From the IMG/VR virus record IMGVR_UViG_2778261297_000006, positions 1 to 42,300 of that record: DNA of 42,300 bases. One strand, given 5' to 3'. A model generated the notes under the pieces. It saw only the letters and a list, made by a program, of their open reading frames with translations. It was not told the origin of the DNA and searched no databases. Shown here in pieces: positions 21,492 to 38,202 of the stretch (positions are counted from its first letter, which is position 1; every line of letters starts with the position of its first letter). A program made the translations under genes and the position numbers. The DNA is from a virus. Its lineage: Duplodnaviria; Heunggongvirae; Uroviricota; Caudoviricetes.

Positions 21492-22022
21492 ATGAAGTAC
21501 CCAACAGTTATTGTCAATGGTGTGTCCGTTCGTGTTGATGAGGATGGACGCTACAACTTAAACGATCTCCATGCAGCAGCAGTTGCAAATGGAGAGGCTA
21601 CAGAGCAACAGCGCCCAAGCCAGTTTTTGCGTAGCGCGCAGATAAAACGCTTCATAAAAGCACTGGAGGCCAAAGTGCAAAAAAGCACTTTGGAACAAAT
21701 TCAACCACTTAAAATAATCAAAGGTGGTGCAGAACCAGGTGTGTGGGGTGTTGAACTTCTGGCAATCAGATATGCAGCATGGATTAAGCCGGAATTTGAA
21801 ATCGAAGTTTATGAAGTTTTCAAAACGGTTGTCCGTCTCGGCGTTGGCGCAATGTCCCGTCTGAATAGAATCGATCACATCATCAATACTGAAACCAAAG
21901 CGATAAGCCAGTGCGCAAGCCAAATGGCTAAGTGGGGCGTTGGTGGGCGAAAAAGATTGCTTCATGTTGCACGCGAGAGAGCGGCAAATGAAGTGCAAAT
22001 GTATTTGCCCGGGATGGTGTGA
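21492..22022 (+). CDS. KilA-N domain protein (176 aa)
   Basis: N-terminal pattern (VNGVSVRVDEDGRYNLNDLH) typical of KilA-N domains (recall); lies between the lysis cassette and the packaging genes. Confidence 0.65.
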   Translation: MKYPTVIVNGVSVRVDEDGRYNLNDLHAAAVANGEATEQQRPSQFLRSAQIKRFIKALEAKVQKSTLEQIQPLKIIKGGAEPGVWGVELLAIRYAAWIKPEFEIEVYEVFKTVVRLGVGAMSRLNRIDHIINTETKAISQCASQMAKWGVGGRKRLLHVARERAANEVQMYLPGMV

Positions 22023-22278: not shown

Positions 22279-22521
22279 ATGGCAGAGATTATTCCCATGA
22301 CTGAAGAACAGAAATTCCAGTTAGAGATTTACAAACTGGTCATGAACCAGAACGCAGCAGCAGAAGAAGCATTTCAGTTCATTGGCACTGACGAACTGAA
22401 GCTTGAGCTATTCAAAATTCACTTCCAGTCAGGCGGCGCTAATTCAGATATCACGACCCGTACTATCGAAGCGGTGCGTAAATCGAAGGAAGCGTTAGAC
22501 CTGTTCACCGCTGGAGTGTGA
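22279..22521 (+). CDS. Hypothetical helical protein (80 aa)
   Basis: ORF immediately upstream of zincin-like gene A, 1 nt apart. Confidence 0.5.
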   Translation: MAEIIPMTEEQKFQLEIYKLVMNQNAAAEEAFQFIGTDELKLELFKIHFQSGGANSDITTRTIEAVRKSKEALDLFTAGV

Positions 22522-22522
22522 T

Positions 22523-22912
22523 ATGGCTAAGGCCAAATGGCACAAACTCCCGGCGTTCACCATTCCGCTGTTTCAAAGTGCACACGTCTACCTCGCAACA
22601 ACCAGAGAACAGTTTCAGCACGCTGATAAATTCCTTGGCGGCAGCGGGGATGAGAAGCCATTCAATCTTGGGCTTGCAAGCAACTATGAAAACACTGATA
22701 CGGGTGAGAGATGCTATCTGATTGGAGTATTCGATCAGCAGATCGCTACGCTCGTTCATGAGTGCGCCCACGTCTGCTTTTACGTTTGCTCTGATGTCGG
22801 CGTGACGACAAGGCCTGAAGATGCCAACGAGACGTACTGTTACATGCTGGACAGGATGGTTAATCACTTCCTGCCATTCATTCAGGAGAAACAAGATGTA
22901 TCACTGGAATAA
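22523..22912 (+). CDS. Minimal zincin-like protein A (HExxH...E, 129 aa); paralog of 37813..38178
   Basis: HECAH motif with a Glu about 20 residues downstream in ANETYCY; roughly 45% identity by eye to the second copy. Confidence 0.6.
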   Translation: MAKAKWHKLPAFTIPLFQSAHVYLATTREQFQHADKFLGGSGDEKPFNLGLASNYENTDTGERCYLIGVFDQQIATLVHECAHVCFYVCSDVGVTTRPEDANETYCYMLDRMVNHFLPFIQEKQDVSLE

Positions 22913-23090
22913 TCAATCCCCTTATTGCCAATGCCAACGCTGCCCGTGCTGCGGGAAGATTGTTAACCAATTTACTGGCAACAATTTCTTCAAGACTGGT
23001 TATGGATATGGTGTTGCGGGTAGCGTTAATTGCTCTGGGGCTGCTGCTGAAACGACATCAAACACAGGCAAGCAGGAAGGAGCTAAGTAA
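22896..23090 (+). CDS. Small Cys-rich protein (64 aa), possible zinc ribbon; overlaps the end of zincin-like gene A
   Basis: Hand-translated from the ATG at 22896 (in frame with the track ORF 22821..23090): MYHWNNQSPYCQCQRCPCCGK...; coding status uncertain. Confidence 0.3.
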   Translation: MYHWNNQSPYCQCQRCPCCGKIVNQFTGNNFFKTGYGYGVAGSVNCSGAAAETTSNTGKQEGAK

Positions 23091-23184
23091 TGGTAATCAA
23101 AGTTTGTTCATGCTCTCAGGGCTTCGACAACCCATCCAAATTCCGCGAAGAGTGGGATAAGCAAACAGAAGGGAAATAATCAAT

Positions 23185-23673
23185 ATGGCAGCACCAAAGG
23201 GCAACCGATTTTGGGAGGCCCGCAGCAGTCACGGGCGCAACCCGAAATTCGAATCGCCTGAGGTGCTGTGGGAAGCATGCTGCGAATATTTCACATGGGT
23301 GGAAGAGCATCCACTGTGGGAAATGAAAGCATTCTCGTATCAGGGTGAAGTGACGCAAGAGCCTATCGCCAAGATGCGTGCAATGACGCTCACCGGCCTA
23401 TGCCTGTTCCTCGATATAGCCGATGAAACATGGCGAAGATTTCGCGCTGACGAAGATTTTTGTGGGGTCACCACGCGAGCAGAGAAAGTCATCTACGACC
23501 AGAAATTCTCCGGCGCAGCTGCTGACCTTCTCAACGCTAATATCATCGCCCGTGATTTGGGCCTCAAAGAGCAGTCGCAAGTTGAAGACGTGACACCTGA
23601 TAAGGGAGATCGCGATAAGCGACGCTCTCGTATCAAGGAGCTATTCAACCGTGGAACTGGACGCGATTCTTGA
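23185..23673 (+). CDS. Terminase small subunit, P22 gp3 type (162 aa)
   Basis: [26 protein letters not shown]... and matching length. Confidence 0.85.
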
Positions 23674-34037: not shown

Positions 34038-35450
34038 TTGGCTACATGGCAACAGGCTGGTAATTCAGGCGCGCTTCTTGCCGGGTTAGGCGGCATGAAC
34101 TCCAACGCTCCAAGAGCAAGTGATGCAGACGCCACGCTTGCATACATTCGACAGAATAATGAGATGGAGCGTTCAGGACGTAATAACGTTGGCTTGCAGG
34201 CTTTGCAGGGCATTTCATCTGTCATGGATATGTATAAGCAGATGGATCAGCAGAAGCGGCAGCAAGAGTTTCAGCAGGCTTATGCTGATGCATATACATC
34301 TGGTGACCGCGATGCAATGCGAAAGCTGGCATCACAGTATCCTGAGCAATTTGACGCTGTAAGAAACGGCATGAAATTTGTCGATGAAGACCAGCGTTCC
34401 ACTGTCGGTACACTGGCAGCAAGTGCCAGGCTCGCAGCTTCATCTCCAGAAGCCATGATGTCATGGTTGCAGAACAACTCATCTGAGCTTACTCGTGCCG
34501 GAGTAGACCCTCTGGATGTGGCGAAAATGTATCAGCAAAATCCACAAGGTTTCACAGAGTTTGTTGATCACCTTGGAATGGCTGCACTTGGTCCAGAACA
34601 ATATTTTCAGGCGCAAGACAGAATCGTTGGGCGTGAGATTGATCGCGGAAAACTTGCAGAGACAATCCGCAGCAATCAGGCTGGTGAAGCACTTCAGGCG
34701 AGAGGGCAAAACCTTTCCTATCAGTCAGCAATGACTGGGCACAATATCGCAGCACAACGCTTGGCTCTGGATCAGCAAGAGTTCGGGTTTAAAATGCAGC
34801 AAGCGCAGGAAAAGGCTCAGCAGTTGATTAGCGAAGCACCTAAGCTGTCAGTAAACATGGAAAAAGGCATCGAGACGGCTGTAAACAATGCTACAGCATC
34901 ATCAAACTCAGCCAATTCTATGAGTGCGCTTGCTCAACAGTTCAGAGCAGAAAAACCAACGACAGGTTTGTTCGGTAACGCACAGAACATGTTCGCAAAA
35001 CTTACCGGAAGCGATACAACATTGCGTGATTTGCGCATTCGCCAAAATGCCCTTGTTAACAGTCAGGTTCTTAAATTCCTACCTCCCGGCCCAGCAACGG
35101 ATAAAGACGTTGAGATCGTTCGACAGGGTGCTCCAACTGACATGGATAACCCTGAGACGGTCGCAAGATGGCTTGATGCAATGGCAAACCTTGAGCGACG
35201 AAACGCGCAGTTTAATGAGTTTAAAGCCGAGTGGATGAGCGCGAATGGCAACCCTGGACAATCGCGTAATGGCGGTCAGATATTGGGGTTGGATGTTAAA
35301 AAAGGTGAATCATTGGGGAGTGCCGTTAAGCGGTATATGTCAATGAATACTGACGCAGCGCCAGCACAAGATTCGACACCTTCAGGAGAACCACGGAATA
35401 AGGTTGGATCATATACCTCAAAATCAGGCATTCAATTTACGGTGGAATGA
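34038..35450 (+). CDS. Ejection protein, P22 gp20 type (470 aa)
   Basis: Size and position; TTG start with GGAGG upstream. Confidence 0.7.
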   Translation: MATWQQAGNSGALLAGLGGMNSNAPRASDADATLAYIRQNNEMERSGRNNVGLQALQGISSVMDMYKQMDQQKRQQEFQQAYADAYTSGDRDAMRKLASQYPEQFDAVRNGMKFVDEDQRSTVGTLAASARLAASSPEAMMSWLQNNSSELTRAGVDPLDVAKMYQQNPQGFTEFVDHLGMAALGPEQYFQAQDRIVGREIDRGKLAETIRSNQAGEALQARGQNLSYQSAMTGHNIAAQRLALDQQEFGFKMQQAQEKAQQLISEAPKLSVNMEKGIETAVNNATASSNSANSMSALAQQFRAEKPTTGLFGNAQNMFAKLTGSDTTLRDLRIRQNALVNSQVLKFLPPGPATDKDVEIVRQGAPTDMDNPETVARWLDAMANLERRNAQFNEFKAEWMSANGNPGQSRNGGQILGLDVKKGESLGSAVKRYMSMNTDAAPAQDSTPSGEPRNKVGSYTSKSGIQFTVE

Positions 35451-37453
35451 TGAAAGTAACTGCAAACGGTAAGACATTTACCTTTCCTGATGGTACGAGC
35501 ACCGAAGATATTGGCACCGCCATTGATGAGTATTTTGCTGGTCAGTCAGCACCAACACAACAAGGTGTTCAGCAATCGCCAGCAGACAACTCACTTGCAT
35601 CAGGATATGCACAGATTGCCACTCAGCAGAAGGAAGGACTAGATCGCTCTGCTGAGCAAGGGGCTGTTTTAGGTGCTGCAATGCGCGATGCCGTTACCGG
35701 TGAAAGCCGAATGACACCAGAAATGGAGAGACTGCAAAATGTTGGGTCTGCTCCAGAGCTTAATAGCTTAAGCACTGATGCGCTGCGTGCTGGATTGGGG
35801 CAGCTATTTGGTTCAGACGCTTCACAGGAGAAAATACTGCAAAGTATTGGCGGGAAAATCCGGAAGGATGAGAAGGGAAATTCCATAGTCACCCTTCCTT
35901 CAGGGGAATATGCACTTAACAAGCCTGGTTTGTCACCGCAGGATATAACGTCATTCTTGGCAAATGCTCTTGCATTCACTCCAGCAGGTAGAGCTGCGTC
36001 TGTTGTAGGTGCAACACTAAAATCAGGCGCTACTGATTTAGCTTTACAGGGTGCCACTAAGATCGCTGGCGGTGAGAATGTTAATCCAGTTCAAACTGCA
36101 ATTTCTGCTGGTCTTGGTGGGGTACTGAAGGGTGTAGAAAACACCGCAAGCGCAGTGTCTCGTTCTGCTATGGGTAAGATTGCTCCTGAAAAACAAGCTC
36201 AGATTGACTTTGCCAAGCAGAACAACTTGCCACTGATGACAACAGATCTTGTGGAACCGGGAACAAATATTGGTAAGCAAGCACGAGCTATGGCTGAGCG
36301 AATCCCAATAGCCGGAACAGGTGGGATAAGAAATGCACAGCAAAAGGCCAGGGAAGATTTAGTTAGAACATTTAGCGATAATGTTGGTGGAATATCTGAC
36401 GCACAACTTTACCAATCAGCTACTCGTGGTCAGCAGCAATTTATTCAGGCTGCTGGCAAGCGGTACGACAGGATCATCAGTTTGATGGGGGATACTCCTG
36501 TTGACATCACTGGAACAGTGAAAGCAATTGATGAGCAGATTTCCAAGTTAACTCGCCCAGGAGTATCGCAAGACCGCTCAGCTGTTTCTGTCCTTCAACA
36601 GTTTAGAAATGACATCACCAGTGGTCCAAATAACCTGCAATTAGCTAGAGAAAACCGTACAAACTTACGTAAGCGCTTTATGGCAGCACCTGACGAGGTC
36701 GATAGAGATACGCTGGAGAAAGCTGCGCAGTCTGTTTATAACGCATACACAACAGACATGAAAAAAGCGGTTGGCGCAAAACTAGGTGCGAAGGAAGCGC
36801 AAAACATGTCGCGTGTTGATCGTTCTTGGGCAAAGTTCAACGACATGATGAGCAATACACGTGTCCAAAAAGCTATTCAGAGTGGTAAAACAACGCCAGA
36901 AGATGTCACTAAACTAGTATTCAGCCAAAGCCCAGCGGAAAGGGCGCAACTTTATCGATTGCTTGATGATAGTGGGCGTCAAAATGCTAGAGCAGCACTT
37001 GTTCAGCGTGCAATGGATAAGGCGACAAGCGATTCAGGAAAGCTTAGCGTTGAGAAGTTTATTAATGAAATGAAAAGGAATCGGAAGCAGGCTGAGACGT
37101 TCTTCAGAGGAGAGCATGGGAAACAGCTTGATGGGATAATGAAATATCTTGATTCCACTAGACAGGCAGCTACAGCTGCCGCAAGCCCACTAACAGGGCA
37201 AATGGTAGCTGGTCCAGCAGCGATGATAACAGCTCTTGCGTCTGTTACAAATCCAATGTTTGCAAAAGTTGCGGCAGTTGGAGCTGGTATCGGTATGGCT
37301 GGCAGGGGCTATGAGTCACGCGCGATGAGGAACGCATTACTAAAGTTAGCAAACACGCCAAAAGGAAGTACTGCTTATGATAGAGCGATCAGACGGGTAT
37401 CTGAAACTCTTACACCTCTAATTCAGGCTTCAAGTGAGAAAGCCCAGCAGTAA
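35447..37453 (+). CDS. Ejection protein, P22 gp16 type (668 aa)
   Basis: Position; last gene of the late block before the immI-like region. Confidence 0.7.
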   Translation: MMKVTANGKTFTFPDGTSTEDIGTAIDEYFAGQSAPTQQGVQQSPADNSLASGYAQIATQQKEGLDRSAEQGAVLGAAMRDAVTGESRMTPEMERLQNVGSAPELNSLSTDALRAGLGQLFGSDASQEKILQSIGGKIRKDEKGNSIVTLPSGEYALNKPGLSPQDITSFLANALAFTPAGRAASVVGATLKSGATDLALQGATKIAGGENVNPVQTAISAGLGGVLKGVENTASAVSRSAMGKIAPEKQAQIDFAKQNNLPLMTTDLVEPGTNIGKQARAMAERIPIAGTGGIRNAQQKAREDLVRTFSDNVGGISDAQLYQSATRGQQQFIQAAGKRYDRIISLMGDTPVDITGTVKAIDEQISKLTRPGVSQDRSAVSVLQQFRNDITSGPNNLQLARENRTNLRKRFMAAPDEVDRDTLEKAAQSVYNAYTTDMKKAVGAKLGAKEAQNMSRVDRSWAKFNDMMSNTRVQKAIQSGKTTPEDVTKLVFSQSPAERAQLYRLLDDSGRQNARAALVQRAMDKATSDSGKLSVEKFINEMKRNRKQAETFFRGEHGKQLDGIMKYLDSTRQAATAAASPLTGQMVAGPAAMITALASVTNPMFAKVAAVGAGIGMAGRGYESRAMRNALLKLANTPKGSTAYDRAIRRVSETLTPLIQASSEKAQQ

Positions 37454-37461
37454 AAAGTTGG

Positions 37462-37782
37462 TTAGCGGTTGATGGTTGCTTTTTTCGGGTCATACCATCT
37501 CGGCCATTCTTTCAGGAATGGGAATGAGTCGGGTGCGTGGTTCTTTTTGTACGATTTAAGCAGCCTTAACCGCTCAATCGCACACTCATAAACCTCTTGT
37601 TGCCCTGTAGTCATCTCGGTCCATGAAAGGTGATCCATTGATAAGACAACGTTTTCAGCTTCTTTTATGAGGGCGTTTTTATTTCTCACCGCAGCAGCAT
37701 GGCTGACAGAGCAATCCTGCCATATTCTTAAAATCCAAATAGCTAAGCAGATGAAAAAAATGGTAGATAGCGATATATACAC
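37462..37782 (-). CDS. Membrane-anchored hypothetical protein (about 106 aa from the GTG at 37782)
   Basis: AAGGAGG 5 nt upstream of the GTG; N-terminal TM helix YISLSTIFFICLAIWILRIW. The track's longer ORF to 37998 would overlap zincin-like gene B on the other strand. Confidence 0.45.
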   Translation of the reverse strand: MYISLSTIFFICLAIWILRIWQDCSVSHAAAVRNKNALIKEAENVVLSMDHLSWTEMTTGQQEVYECAIERLRLLKSYKKNHAPDSFPFLKEWPRWYDPKKATINR

Positions 37783-37812
37783 ACCAACCTCCTTAGTTTT
37801 TCGCAGGATACC

Positions 37813-38178
37813 ATGAAAAAAGTAAACATTGGAAACGTACCAAAGATGCTCGTACCGCTCTTTGAGAGCGGTACGATTGTGTTTTGCAGAGACTTTCCAG
37901 AATGGCAACGCCTGCATCAAAAACTTGGCGTGGACGTGCAGGACTCGGATGCCAACGGAGCGTCTCATACAATGAGCAGCGAGAATGGTGTTTTGCATGT
38001 GATAGGCGTGTTCAATGGCAAACTATCTACCATTGCCCATGAGTGCGCTCACATGGCATTCGATATCTGCTCAAGGGTCGGTGTTGATGTTGAACCAGGA
38101 AGAGCCAACGAGACTTACTGCTACTTAATGAGCAGGCTTGTTGAGTTCTGCGAGCGACATATCAAAAAGCCGGAGTGA
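37813..38178 (+). CDS. Minimal zincin-like protein B (HExxH...E, 121 aa); paralog of 22523..22912
   Basis: HECAHMAF and ANETYCY motifs shared with copy A; on the late-operon strand directly after the gp16 homolog. Confidence 0.6.
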   Translation: MKKVNIGNVPKMLVPLFESGTIVFCRDFPEWQRLHQKLGVDVQDSDANGASHTMSSENGVLHVIGVFNGKLSTIAHECAHMAFDICSRVGVDVEPGRANETYCYLMSRLVEFCERHIKKPE

Positions 38179-38202
38179 CCCGGCTTGATTATTACTTTTT
38201 TT
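38164..38202. terminator. Bidirectional hairpin terminator between zincin-like gene B and the convergent membrane gene
   Basis: Stem aagccgg/ccggctt flanked by an A-run on one side and a T-run on the other. Confidence 0.5.

What the first reader, a model, noticed from the sequence alone, without database searches (positions are those of the whole stretch)
22279..23090. Two paralogous minimal HExxH...E zincin-like proteins, both on the late-operon strand
The proteins at 22523..22912 (129 aa) and 37813..38178 (121 aa) share clear blocks (PLF, IGVF, HECAH, VGV, ANETYCY), about 45% identity by eye. The HExxH motif plus a Glu about 20 residues downstream is the gluzincin arrangement compressed into about 120 residues. 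One copy sits in a small cassette (80-aa helical protein, zincin, overlapping Cys-rich ORF) just upstream of the terminase genes; the other lies just after the last ejection gene. Both are on the late-operon strand. Two diverged copies of a putative metalloprotease at two late positions is unusual and could indicate a virion-associated or anti-host function. Whether the Cys-rich ORF is a separate zinc-ribbon gene is unresolved.
Basis: partly seen in the sequence, partly recalled or inferred. Interest (0 to 1): 0.6.

Follow-up and report, generated by a model that had tools for sequence, protein, structure and literature searches.

The report
Two small zincin-like phage proteins
This P22-like prophage carries two diverged copies of a small, widespread phage protein (known as Orf129 and HkcC, function unknown) whose only invariant residues are a zinc-protease-type HExxH...E motif, so it is probably a miniature metallopeptidase with an unknown target.

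Summary
The ORFs at 22523..22912 (129 aa) and 37813..38178 (121 aa) are true paralogues (BLASTP 35% identity, E=2e-24, not about 45%). Both are on the late-gene strand.

Neither is new as a gene. Copy 1 is the Orf129 type of phage L, ST64T and ST104. Copy 2 is 100% identical in protein to HK620 HkcC and to an unannotated ORF in phage P22. The ST104 annotators had already linked the two types, and several P22-like phages carry two or three copies.

Both belong to PHROG 1365 (unknown function). The family has about 983 clusters at 50% identity and no Pfam or NCBIfam model. Across 134 diverse members, the only invariant columns are H, E and H of HExxH and a Glu, usually 20 residues downstream and usually preceded by Asn. 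That is thermolysin's spacing.

Best reading: an undescribed family of minimal, cytoplasmic, gluzincin-like metallohydrolases, encoded as accessory genes, substrate unknown. The Cys-rich ORF is probably a separate 64-aa gene (22896..23090).

The parts
22279..22521 (+). orf80-type DUF2560 gene (80 aa), immediately upstream of copy 1; its stop TGA ends 1 nt before the ATG of copy 1
   Evidence: Pfam PF10834 DUF2560 E=1.1e-43; phrog_571. A DUF2560 gene lies next to the Orf129-type gene, upstream or downstream, in about 55 of 80 related viral loci.
22523..22912 (+). Copy 1: Orf129-type minimal zincin-like protein (129 aa, 14.7 kDa, pI 5.3)
   Evidence: 61% identical to phage L/ST64T/ST104 Orf129 at the same map position. 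phrog_1365 E=2e-37. AF2 pLDDT 86, pTM 0.82. GGAG 7 nt upstream of the ATG.
22757..22771 (+). HExxH codons of copy 1 (H79 E80 C A H83)
   Evidence: Invariant in alignments A1 and A2; lies in predicted helix 74-92.
22826..22840 (+). N102-E103-T-Y-C codons of copy 1: the proposed third metal ligand E103 at the N-terminus of the last helix; the family-conserved Tyr (Y107) follows at 22841..22843
   Evidence: E is invariant. The second His to Glu spacing is 20 in 181 and 19 in 45 of 244 homologues, and N precedes E in 199/244. Y107 is present in 132/137.
22896..23090 (+). Cys-rich small ORF (64 aa, CQCQRCPCC motif) overlapping the end of copy 1 by 17 nt; probably a separate gene in the slot where phage L/ST104 carry dec
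   Evidence: AGGAG 7 nt upstream. Six homologues, including a 63-aa protein 64% identical with the Cys motif conserved, found in the same DUF2560-zincin-Cys cassette. Changes are biased to third codon positions in the diverged copies L019 and L050. No family hit. Not annotated by PGAP in E. coli N9.
37465..37788 (-). Minus-strand ORF of about 108 aa with a hydrophobic N-terminus, between the last ejection gene and copy 2, at the position of HK620 hkcB / P22 sieA
   Evidence: ORF list; HK620 and P22 annotation at the equivalent place; no Pfam hit. The start codon is uncertain.
37813..38178 (+). Copy 2: HkcC (121 aa, 13.6 kDa, pI 6.3)
   Evidence: Protein 100% identical to HK620 HkcC and to the unannotated P22 ORF; the 6 nt differences to each are all third-position and synonymous. 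phrog_1365 E=1.4e-39. AF2 pLDDT 94.4, pTM 0.87, same topology as copy 1.
38038..38052 (+). HExxH codons of copy 2 (H76 E77 C A H80)
   Evidence: Invariant columns of A2.
38107..38112 (+). N99-E100 codons of copy 2 (proposed third metal ligand)
   Evidence: E100 is an invariant column of A2.
38167..38186 (.). Bidirectional terminator hairpin overlapping the hkcC stop codon
   Evidence: Terminator-like on both strands. Annotated as the bidirectional terminator tORF59A in HK620 and as t-mnt in P22.

Best explanation
Both genes encode soluble, cytoplasmic, roughly 120-residue members of one large, uncharacterised, phage-borne family (Orf129/HkcC, PHROG 1365) that has the hallmarks of a minimal gluzincin-type metallohydrolase. 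Shown: paralogy, strong purifying selection, family size, the invariant H-E-x-x-H ... E pattern, and the predicted beta-beta-alpha-beta-beta-alpha-alpha topology with HExxH in the penultimate helix and the Glu at the start of the last helix. Inferred: the two His and the downstream Glu bind one Zn2+; the HExxH Glu activates water; the conserved strand just before the active-site helix (YLIGVF) aligns an extended peptide substrate, as in other zincins; the near-invariant Tyr one turn after the Glu supports the site. Also inferred: the proteins are accessory ('moron'-type) enzymes made inside the infected cell. Copy 1 would be made from the late operon between lysis and terminase genes, and copy 2 by read-through of the immI-like region. 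Each would cleave a specific protein, most likely a host or host-defence protein. Two 35%-identical copies would then have different specificities. The substrate is unknown.
Confidence: 0.6

Rival explanations
1. SprT/Wss1/Spartan-like DNA-associated protease. The proteins would remove proteins bound or crosslinked to phage DNA, for instance host nucleoid or defence proteins on concatemers before packaging, which would fit the position next to the terminase genes.
For: SprT-like (PF10263) is the only Pfam family hit recurrently, in 70/110 members at E<=1 and 18/134 at E<=0.1, best 1e-4. One homologue is named 'SprT-like family protein' by its source, and two BFVD neighbours carry that label. 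Several longer homologues have Lys/Arg-rich C-terminal tails that could bind nucleic acid. Copy 1 and its relatives lie just upstream of terminase.
Against: All hits are below the gathering score and cover only the HExxH helix. The third-ligand His of Wss1/Spartan (from memory) is absent: position +6 after the second His is Leu or Cys, and the invariant residue is a Glu at +20. hhalign against E. coli SprT (YggI) gave 7% probability, though this was a single-sequence target. The two window proteins have no basic tail and are acidic (pI 5.3 and 6.3). hkcC is not near terminase.
Confidence: 0.12
2. ImmA/IrrE (M78)-type regulatory protease that cleaves a repressor, so that hkcC would be part of the immI anti-repression circuit.
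For: hkcC sits in the immI-like region beside Arc/Mnt-type repressor and antirepressor genes. One BFVD neighbour is labelled IrrE. One homologue has a Peptidase_M78 hit at E=0.099.
Against: M78 is not hit by either window protein or by 243 of 244 scanned members. HK620 keeps hkcC with only remnants of mnt and ant. Copy 1 and most relatives lie between lysis and terminase genes with no repressor partner. Homologues occur in virulent N4-like and T7-like phages.
Confidence: 0.06
3. Copy 2 (hkcC) is a lysogeny-expressed moron, for example a superinfection-exclusion or host-benefit function like its neighbour sieA, rather than a late lytic function.
For: [quoted passage not shown] It is bracketed by a terminator-like hairpin at 37850..37876 and a bidirectional terminator at its stop codon.
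Against: No sigma-70-like promoter was found on the + strand upstream. It is co-directional with the late operon. The paralogue and most relatives are plainly inside late operons.
Confidence: 0.15
4. A metal-dependent hydrolase or oxygenase with an HExxH motif that acts on a non-protein substrate such as a nucleotide or a signalling molecule, or a non-catalytic metal-binding adaptor.
For: A sub-threshold hit to the aKG-HExxH peptide hydroxylase domain TIGR04267 (E=0.002). No peptidase family threshold is met. No solved zincin is a close structural match.
Against: The hit covers 30 residues around HExxH only. Every other weak link is to peptidases. Invariance of the HExxH Glu (the general base in zincins) argues for catalysis.
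Confidence: 0.07

Closest known systems
Phage L/ST64T Orf129 (= ST104 orf47, epsilon34 gp70) and HK620/P22 HkcC; PHROG 1365
   Same: The same genes. Copy 1 is 61% identical to Orf129 and sits in the same slot after DUF2560 and before dec/gene 3. Copy 2 is 100% identical in protein to HkcC.
   Different: Copy 1 is a diverged allele: its closest relatives (97-100%) are in E. coli prophages and IMG/VR contigs. The dec slot holds a Cys-rich mini-gene instead. None of these genes has a known function.
Gluzincins of the thermolysin type (MEROPS clan MA(E): HExxH plus a Glu on a following helix, as in thermolysin M4)
SprT-like / Wss1 / Spartan zincins (Pfam PF10263)
   Same: Small alpha/beta zincin core. 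This is the only recurrent, though sub-threshold, Pfam hit, and some sources give this name automatically.
   Different: Scores are below the gathering threshold. The third ligand is a Glu at +20, not a His. There is no zinc ribbon or DNA-binding domain.
Zincin-like metallopeptidase domains of phage and plasmid polyvalent proteins (Iyer et al. 2017; ArdC C-terminal domain)
   Same: The same minimal core as described there: a sheet, then an HExxH helix, then a Glu helix. They are carried by phages and proposed to act in phage-host conflict. One BFVD neighbour carries this label.
   Different: These are stand-alone single-domain proteins, not part of giant multidomain proteins. No Pfam MPTase-PolyVal hit was listed. 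There is no evidence of packaging or injection.
Astacin-like metzincins (myroilysin, BMP1)
   Same: Marginal profile match (E=0.01) over the whole N-terminal subdomain, including a 'KWP...VPLYGG' start and HExxH.
   Different: The metzincin signature HExxHxxGxxH and the Met-turn are absent. The proteins are intracellular and far smaller.

Membership tests
Orf129/HkcC family (PHROG 1365) | Significant full-length match to the family profile | tested here: met
   phrog_1365 E=2.1e-37 (copy 1) and 1.4e-39 (copy 2), covering residues 1-125 and 1-121. All 134 members of A2 hit it.
Zincin superfamily (HExxH metallopeptidase core) | Conserved HExxH on a helix that follows a beta-sheet subdomain | tested here: met
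   HExxH is invariant and lies in predicted helix 74-92 (copy 1) or 71-88 (copy 2), after four strands and one helix.
Zincin superfamily (HExxH metallopeptidase core) | Significant structural similarity to a solved zincin | tested here: inconclusive
Zincin superfamily (HExxH metallopeptidase core) | The three ligands converge on one metal site; Zn is bound; peptidase activity | not testable with these tools
   Structure prediction returns no coordinates, and no biochemical data exist.
Gluzincins (clan MA(E)) | Third ligand Glu on the helix after the HExxH helix, roughly 18-30 or more residues downstream | tested here: met
   Invariant Glu 19-20 residues after the second His in 226/244 homologues, at the first residue of the last predicted helix. 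This is a motif-level test only.
SprT-like (PF10263) / Wss1 / Spartan | Pfam gathering score (25.6 bits) | tested here: not met
   12.7 bits, E=0.12 for copy 1 and no hit for copy 2. Best family member reaches E=1e-4.
SprT-like (PF10263) / Wss1 / Spartan | Third zinc ligand is a His shortly after HExxH (from memory, Wss1 H125 and Spartan H130) | tested here: not met
   No conserved His after HExxH. Position +6 is Leu in 76 and Cys in 39 sequences.
ImmA/IrrE (Peptidase_M78, PF06114) | Pfam match; adjacent cognate HTH repressor | tested here: not met
   Neither window protein hits it. Only one of the scanned homologues hits it, at E=0.099. No HTH partner lies next to copy 1 or its relatives.
Polyvalent-protein MPTase | A domain embedded in a large multidomain protein; Pfam MPTase-PolyVal match | tested here: not met
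   The proteins are stand-alone, 100-216 aa, with no fused Pfam domain. No such Pfam hit is listed.
Metzincins (astacin-like) | HExxHxxGxxH/D motif and Met-turn | tested here: not met
   The consensus is HExAHxxFxxL. The marginal profile hit to myroilysin has E=0.01.
Known anti-phage defence system components (PADLOC) | Match to any PADLOC model | tested here: not met
   No hits at E<=1.

The most novel reading that the evidence does not exclude
Orf129/HkcC proteins are a widespread class of stand-alone mini-proteases that phages use to cut specific host immunity or host-takeover targets. The two 35%-identical paralogues in one genome would be specificity variants produced by an arms race. The tightly coupled Cys-rich mini-protein and/or DUF2560 would act as a partner, such as an adaptor, inhibitor or zinc chaperone. 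Because hkcC is present but unannotated in phage P22 and annotated in HK620, this could be tested directly in classic genetic systems.
Probability: 0.2. Interest if true: 0.75.

Novelty: new variant of a known kind. Interest (0 to 1): 0.4.

Why it matters
If the prediction holds, a family of about a thousand sequence clusters, present in model phages (P22, L, HK620, epsilon34), in lambdoid, N4-like, T7-like and crAss-like phages and in many enterobacterial prophages, would move from 'hypothetical protein' to 'minimal zinc peptidase'. That would be one of the smallest zincin catalytic units known, and it has no curated model in Pfam, NCBIfam or PHROGs. Proteolytic counter-defence by phages is little documented, so finding the substrate could reveal a new phage-host interaction. 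The practical consequences are modest but real. hkcC should be annotated in the P22 reference genome. 'SprT-like' labels on these proteins are unsupported at curated thresholds. The 64-aa Cys-rich gene is missed by PGAP.

Tried and rejected
1. Curated family assignment. Pfam, NCBIfam and PADLOC gave only sub-threshold or no hits.
3. hhalign of the family profile against E. coli SprT (YggI) gave 7% probability. This is uninformative because the target was a single sequence.
4. C89 or D91 as an alternative third ligand (SprT-like or metzincin-like spacing). Rejected: neither is conserved across the family.
5. Fused domains in longer homologues as functional clues. None were found, only low-complexity acidic or basic tails.
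6. DUF2560 as an obligate partner. Rejected as unproven. It is adjacent in about 55/80 close loci, in either order, but the hot spot holds only a few genes, P22 has orf80 without Orf129, and hkcC has no DUF2560 neighbour.
7. Virion association. Phage L virion proteomics lists 22 proteins, but the nine not named in the text sit in a supplement that is not held, so this stays unresolved.
8. Literature. Searches for hkcC, accession numbers and phage zincin/anti-defence terms found no functional study.
9. The antisense ORF 22505..22894 (129 aa, minus strand) is treated as a shadow of copy 1, not a gene.
10. The alternative frame 23003..23160 (hydrophobic 52 aa) in the Cys-ORF region was rejected. 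It has no Shine-Dalgarno sequence, and its sequence changes non-conservatively in L019.
11. The search for related loci with the diverse alignment A2 failed because no stretch was conserved enough. A1 was used instead.

Full report
**What the window is.** The window is a P22-like (Lederbergvirus-type) prophage or phage of an enterobacterium. The late strand carries, in order: holin, lysozyme and Rz-like lysis genes; a KilA-N gene (21492..22022); small and large terminase (23185.., 23651..); portal, scaffold and coat genes; the ejection proteins gp7 and gp20; an ORF at the gp16 position; an immI-like region; and a tailspike. The stretch 22500..23200 is 98-99.9% identical to prophages in 16 complete E. 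coli genomes.

**Check of the observation.**
- Both ORFs exist as stated.
- BLASTP of copy 1 (22523..22912, 129 aa) against copy 2 (37813..38178, 121 aa) gives 35% identity over 113 residues, E=2e-24.
- Both proteins fall in PHROG 1365, 'unknown function'.
- HExxH and a Glu exactly 20 residues after the second His are present in both.
- Copy 1 starts 1 nt after the stop of an 80-aa DUF2560 gene (Pfam E=1e-43) and has a GGAG Shine-Dalgarno sequence.
- Copy 2 is separated from the last ejection gene by a minus-strand ORF of about 108 aa. Downstream lie a minus-strand Arc-like gene, a Bro-N/P22_AR_C antirepressor and the tailspike.

**These genes are already on record.**
- Copy 1 is a 61%-identical allele of 'Orf129' of phage L and ST64T, which equals ST104 orf47 and epsilon34 gene 70. 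Those genes occupy the same slot between the DUF2560 gene and dec/gene 3.
- Copy 2 is HkcC. Its protein is 100% identical to HK620 HkcC and to an intact but unannotated ORF in phage P22. Six nucleotide differences separate the window from each, and all are synonymous third-position changes.
- The ST104 record already notes that orf47 resembles HK620 HkcC.
- Villafane et al. 2008 list hkcC as a gene of unknown function in P22's 'ant moron' (PMC2629481).
- The UAB_Phi20 genome table lists hkcC as unknown (PMC4837284).
- In the phage collection the copy-1 query matched 105 places in 92 records. SE1, ST160, Phi75, UAB_Phi20, ST-29, ST-32 and SW-70 hold two places and ST-87 three. Two copies in one P22-like genome is therefore recurrent, not unusual.

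**Family size and conservation.**
- The word-indexed search found 206 relatives.
- A profile search of 1.84 billion representatives found 983 clusters at 50% identity with E<=1e-3, and 264 with E<=1e-10. Nearly all are stand-alone proteins of 100-140 residues.
- HExxH is present in 115/120 and 132/135 of these. The exceptions are truncated, frameshifted or chimeric.
- In an alignment of 134 diverse members (mean column identity 16%), the only invariant columns are H, E and H of HExxH and the downstream Glu. Two Gly and one Tyr, four residues after the Glu, are at least 90% conserved.
- The spacing from the second His to the Glu is 20 in 181 and 19 in 45 of 244 sequences, and Asn precedes the Glu in 199.
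- From memory, thermolysin's ligands are H142, H146 and E166, with N165 before the Glu. That is the same spacing and the same N-E dipeptide.
- Cys89 of copy 1 stands where Wss1-type zincins have their third His. It is Leu in most members, so it is not a ligand.
- Neither protein has a hydrophobic segment, and both are acidic. They are therefore soluble and cytoplasmic.

**Structure.**
- AlphaFold2 with the family alignments gives confident models: copy 1 has pLDDT 86 and pTM 0.82, and HkcC has pLDDT 94 and pTM 0.87.
- Both share one topology: two short strands, a helix, a beta-hairpin, a long helix carrying HExxH, a loop of about 10 residues with a conserved Gly, and a final long helix that begins at the invariant Glu.
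- This fits the minimal zincin core described by Iyer et al. 2017: a sheet with a flanking helix, an HExxH helix, then a Glu-bearing helix (PMC5512222).
- Against predicted viral structures there are 29 matches at E<=1e-3. Almost all are uncharacterised phage proteins from very different phages: crAss-like, jumbo, N4-like, and phages of Ralstonia, Achromobacter, Acinetobacter and Eggerthella.
- The few named neighbours, some just above that cut-off, are labelled 'SprT-like', 'PolyVal metallopeptidase', 'IrrE' or 'Metalloprotease'.
- The tool returns no coordinates, so the convergence of the three ligands could not be measured.

**Family membership.**
- No curated threshold is reached.
- SprT-like (PF10263) is the only recurrent Pfam hit: 70/110 members at E<=1 and 18/134 at E<=0.1, best 1e-4. 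It covers only the HExxH helix and stays below the gathering score.
- NCBIfam gives a 30-residue sub-threshold hit to an HExxH hydroxylase domain. PADLOC gives nothing.
- A PDB profile search gives a marginal hit (E=0.01) to the astacin-like myroilysin. The alignment runs from a 'KWP...VPLYGG' N-terminus through HExxH.
- I therefore place the family in the zincin superfamily with a gluzincin-type ligand set. I do not place it in SprT/Wss1, M78, astacins or the polyvalent-protein MPTases.

**Genomic context.**
- In 80 IMG/VR loci encoding close relatives of copy 1, the gene always lies after the lysis cassette and before the terminase genes. This holds even where the terminase is of a different type.
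- The same is true of the lambdoid phage mEp044.
- In the T7-like Ralstonia phage RSB3, a distant relative follows the lysis genes at the right genome end.
- In an N4-like Klebsiella phage, it lies among small early genes.
- A DUF2560 gene is adjacent in about 55/80 loci, upstream in most and downstream in a few lineages. The hot spot holds only a few genes, P22 has orf80 without Orf129, and hkcC has no DUF2560 neighbour. A functional pairing is therefore unproven.
- hkcC ends inside a bidirectional terminator (38167..38186).
- No + strand sigma-70-like promoter was found upstream of hkcC. Late read-through is the simplest route to expression. [quoted passage not shown]

**The Cys-rich ORF.**
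- The best start is ATG 22896, with AGGAG 7 nt upstream. It gives a 64-aa protein (MYHWNNQSPYCQCQRCPCCGK...) that overlaps copy 1 by 17 nt.
- It has six homologues in 5.8 billion proteins. One is a 63-aa protein that is 64% identical, with the Cys cluster intact and a divergent C-terminal half. It sits in the same DUF2560-zincin-Cys cassette, next to a zincin 92% identical to copy 1.
- In the two most diverged DNA copies, changes are biased to third codon positions, while the alternative open frame changes non-conservatively.
- The ORF follows two different zincin alleles and can coexist with dec (L019, L050).
- It has no family match, no tblastn hit in GenBank phages, and is not called by PGAP.
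- I conclude it is probably a real, separate mini-gene occupying or preceding the dec slot. I could not test whether it binds zinc.

**Mechanism.**
- Shown: paralogy, purifying selection, family breadth, the invariant HExxH...(N)E pattern, the predicted fold and the accessory-gene positions.
- Inferred: a single Zn2+ held by the two His and the Glu; the HExxH Glu acting as general base; substrate bound along the conserved strand before the active-site helix; and action on a specific cytoplasmic protein during infection.
- The substrate is unknown. I consider a host or host-defence target the most likely class, because the family is confined to phage and prophage contexts, is variably present, lies in moron hot spots (early in N4-like phages), and is duplicated with strong divergence.
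- Rivals are listed with their tests: a SprT-like DNA-associated protease, an ImmA-like repressor protease, a lysogeny-expressed function for hkcC, and a non-peptidase HExxH enzyme.

**Verdict.** The zincin reading is reasonable and strengthened at the motif and topology level, but it is unproven structurally and biochemically. The 'unusual duplication' and 'virion-associated' ideas are not supported. The genes are long-known ORFs of unknown function, and the family is an undescribed minimal branch of a known superfamily. Interest is moderate, mainly because the family is large, lacks any curated model, and could be tested immediately in P22, HK620 or phage L.

Noticed in passing
window 37850..37876 (+), inside the 5' part of hkcC: A strong terminator-like hairpin (12-bp stem, then TTGTGTTTTG) lies within codons 13-22 of hkcC. 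RNA folding gives -24 kcal/mol, z=-4.8 against shuffles. Two of the six synonymous differences from P22/HK620 (37854, 37875) lengthen the stem in this window. Its function is unknown; it could be an attenuator or an intra-operon terminator.
   Followed up: partly
P22 reference records (NC_002371.2 13861..14226; L002 2535..2900): The hkcC ORF is intact in phage P22 and encodes a protein identical to HK620 HkcC, but it is not annotated as a CDS in the P22 reference records. Only the PsieA promoter and the t-mnt terminator are annotated there.
   Followed up: yes
window 22912..23185; loci L019, L026, L064-L088: The slot between the Orf129-type gene and gene 3 is a small hot spot. It holds dec (the head decoration gene) in phage L/ST104-type genomes, the Cys-rich mini-gene in this window, both in L019, and other small ORFs (30 and 110 aa) in L091.
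   Followed up: partly
protein P0113: An E. coli protein named 'NinF' is a chimera of a NinF-like N-terminus fused to the C-terminal half of the zincin, starting within HECAH. It is presumably a deletion in a defective prophage that joined the nin region to this gene. Several other hits are frameshifted fragments of copy-1-type genes.
   Followed up: no
proteins P0119, P0134, P0135 and mEp044_72 (L006 4001..4585): A subfamily of 173-194 aa in E. coli and lambdoid phages adds an acidic then Lys/Arg-rich C-terminal tail that ends in a conserved-looking motif (VPRVMSFKRG/W, VPRIARYKRG). There is no Pfam match. It may be a nucleic-acid-binding or partner-binding tail.
   Followed up: partly
window 22505..22894 (-): A 129-aa antisense ORF almost exactly mirrors copy 1. 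It is treated as a shadow ORF with no independent evidence.
   Followed up: no
window 37462..37998 (-): The minus-strand ORF between the last ejection gene and hkcC is open for 178 codons and overlaps the first 186 nt of hkcC. By analogy with HK620 hkcB and P22 sieA, it probably starts near 37788 (GTG), giving a protein of about 108 aa with a hydrophobic N-terminus. It is not similar to P22 sieA at the DNA level and has no Pfam hit.
   Followed up: partly
window 35447..37453 (+): The 668-aa protein at the gp16 (last ejection protein) position has no Pfam hit, whereas its neighbours gp7 and gp20 hit P22-specific families.
   Followed up: no
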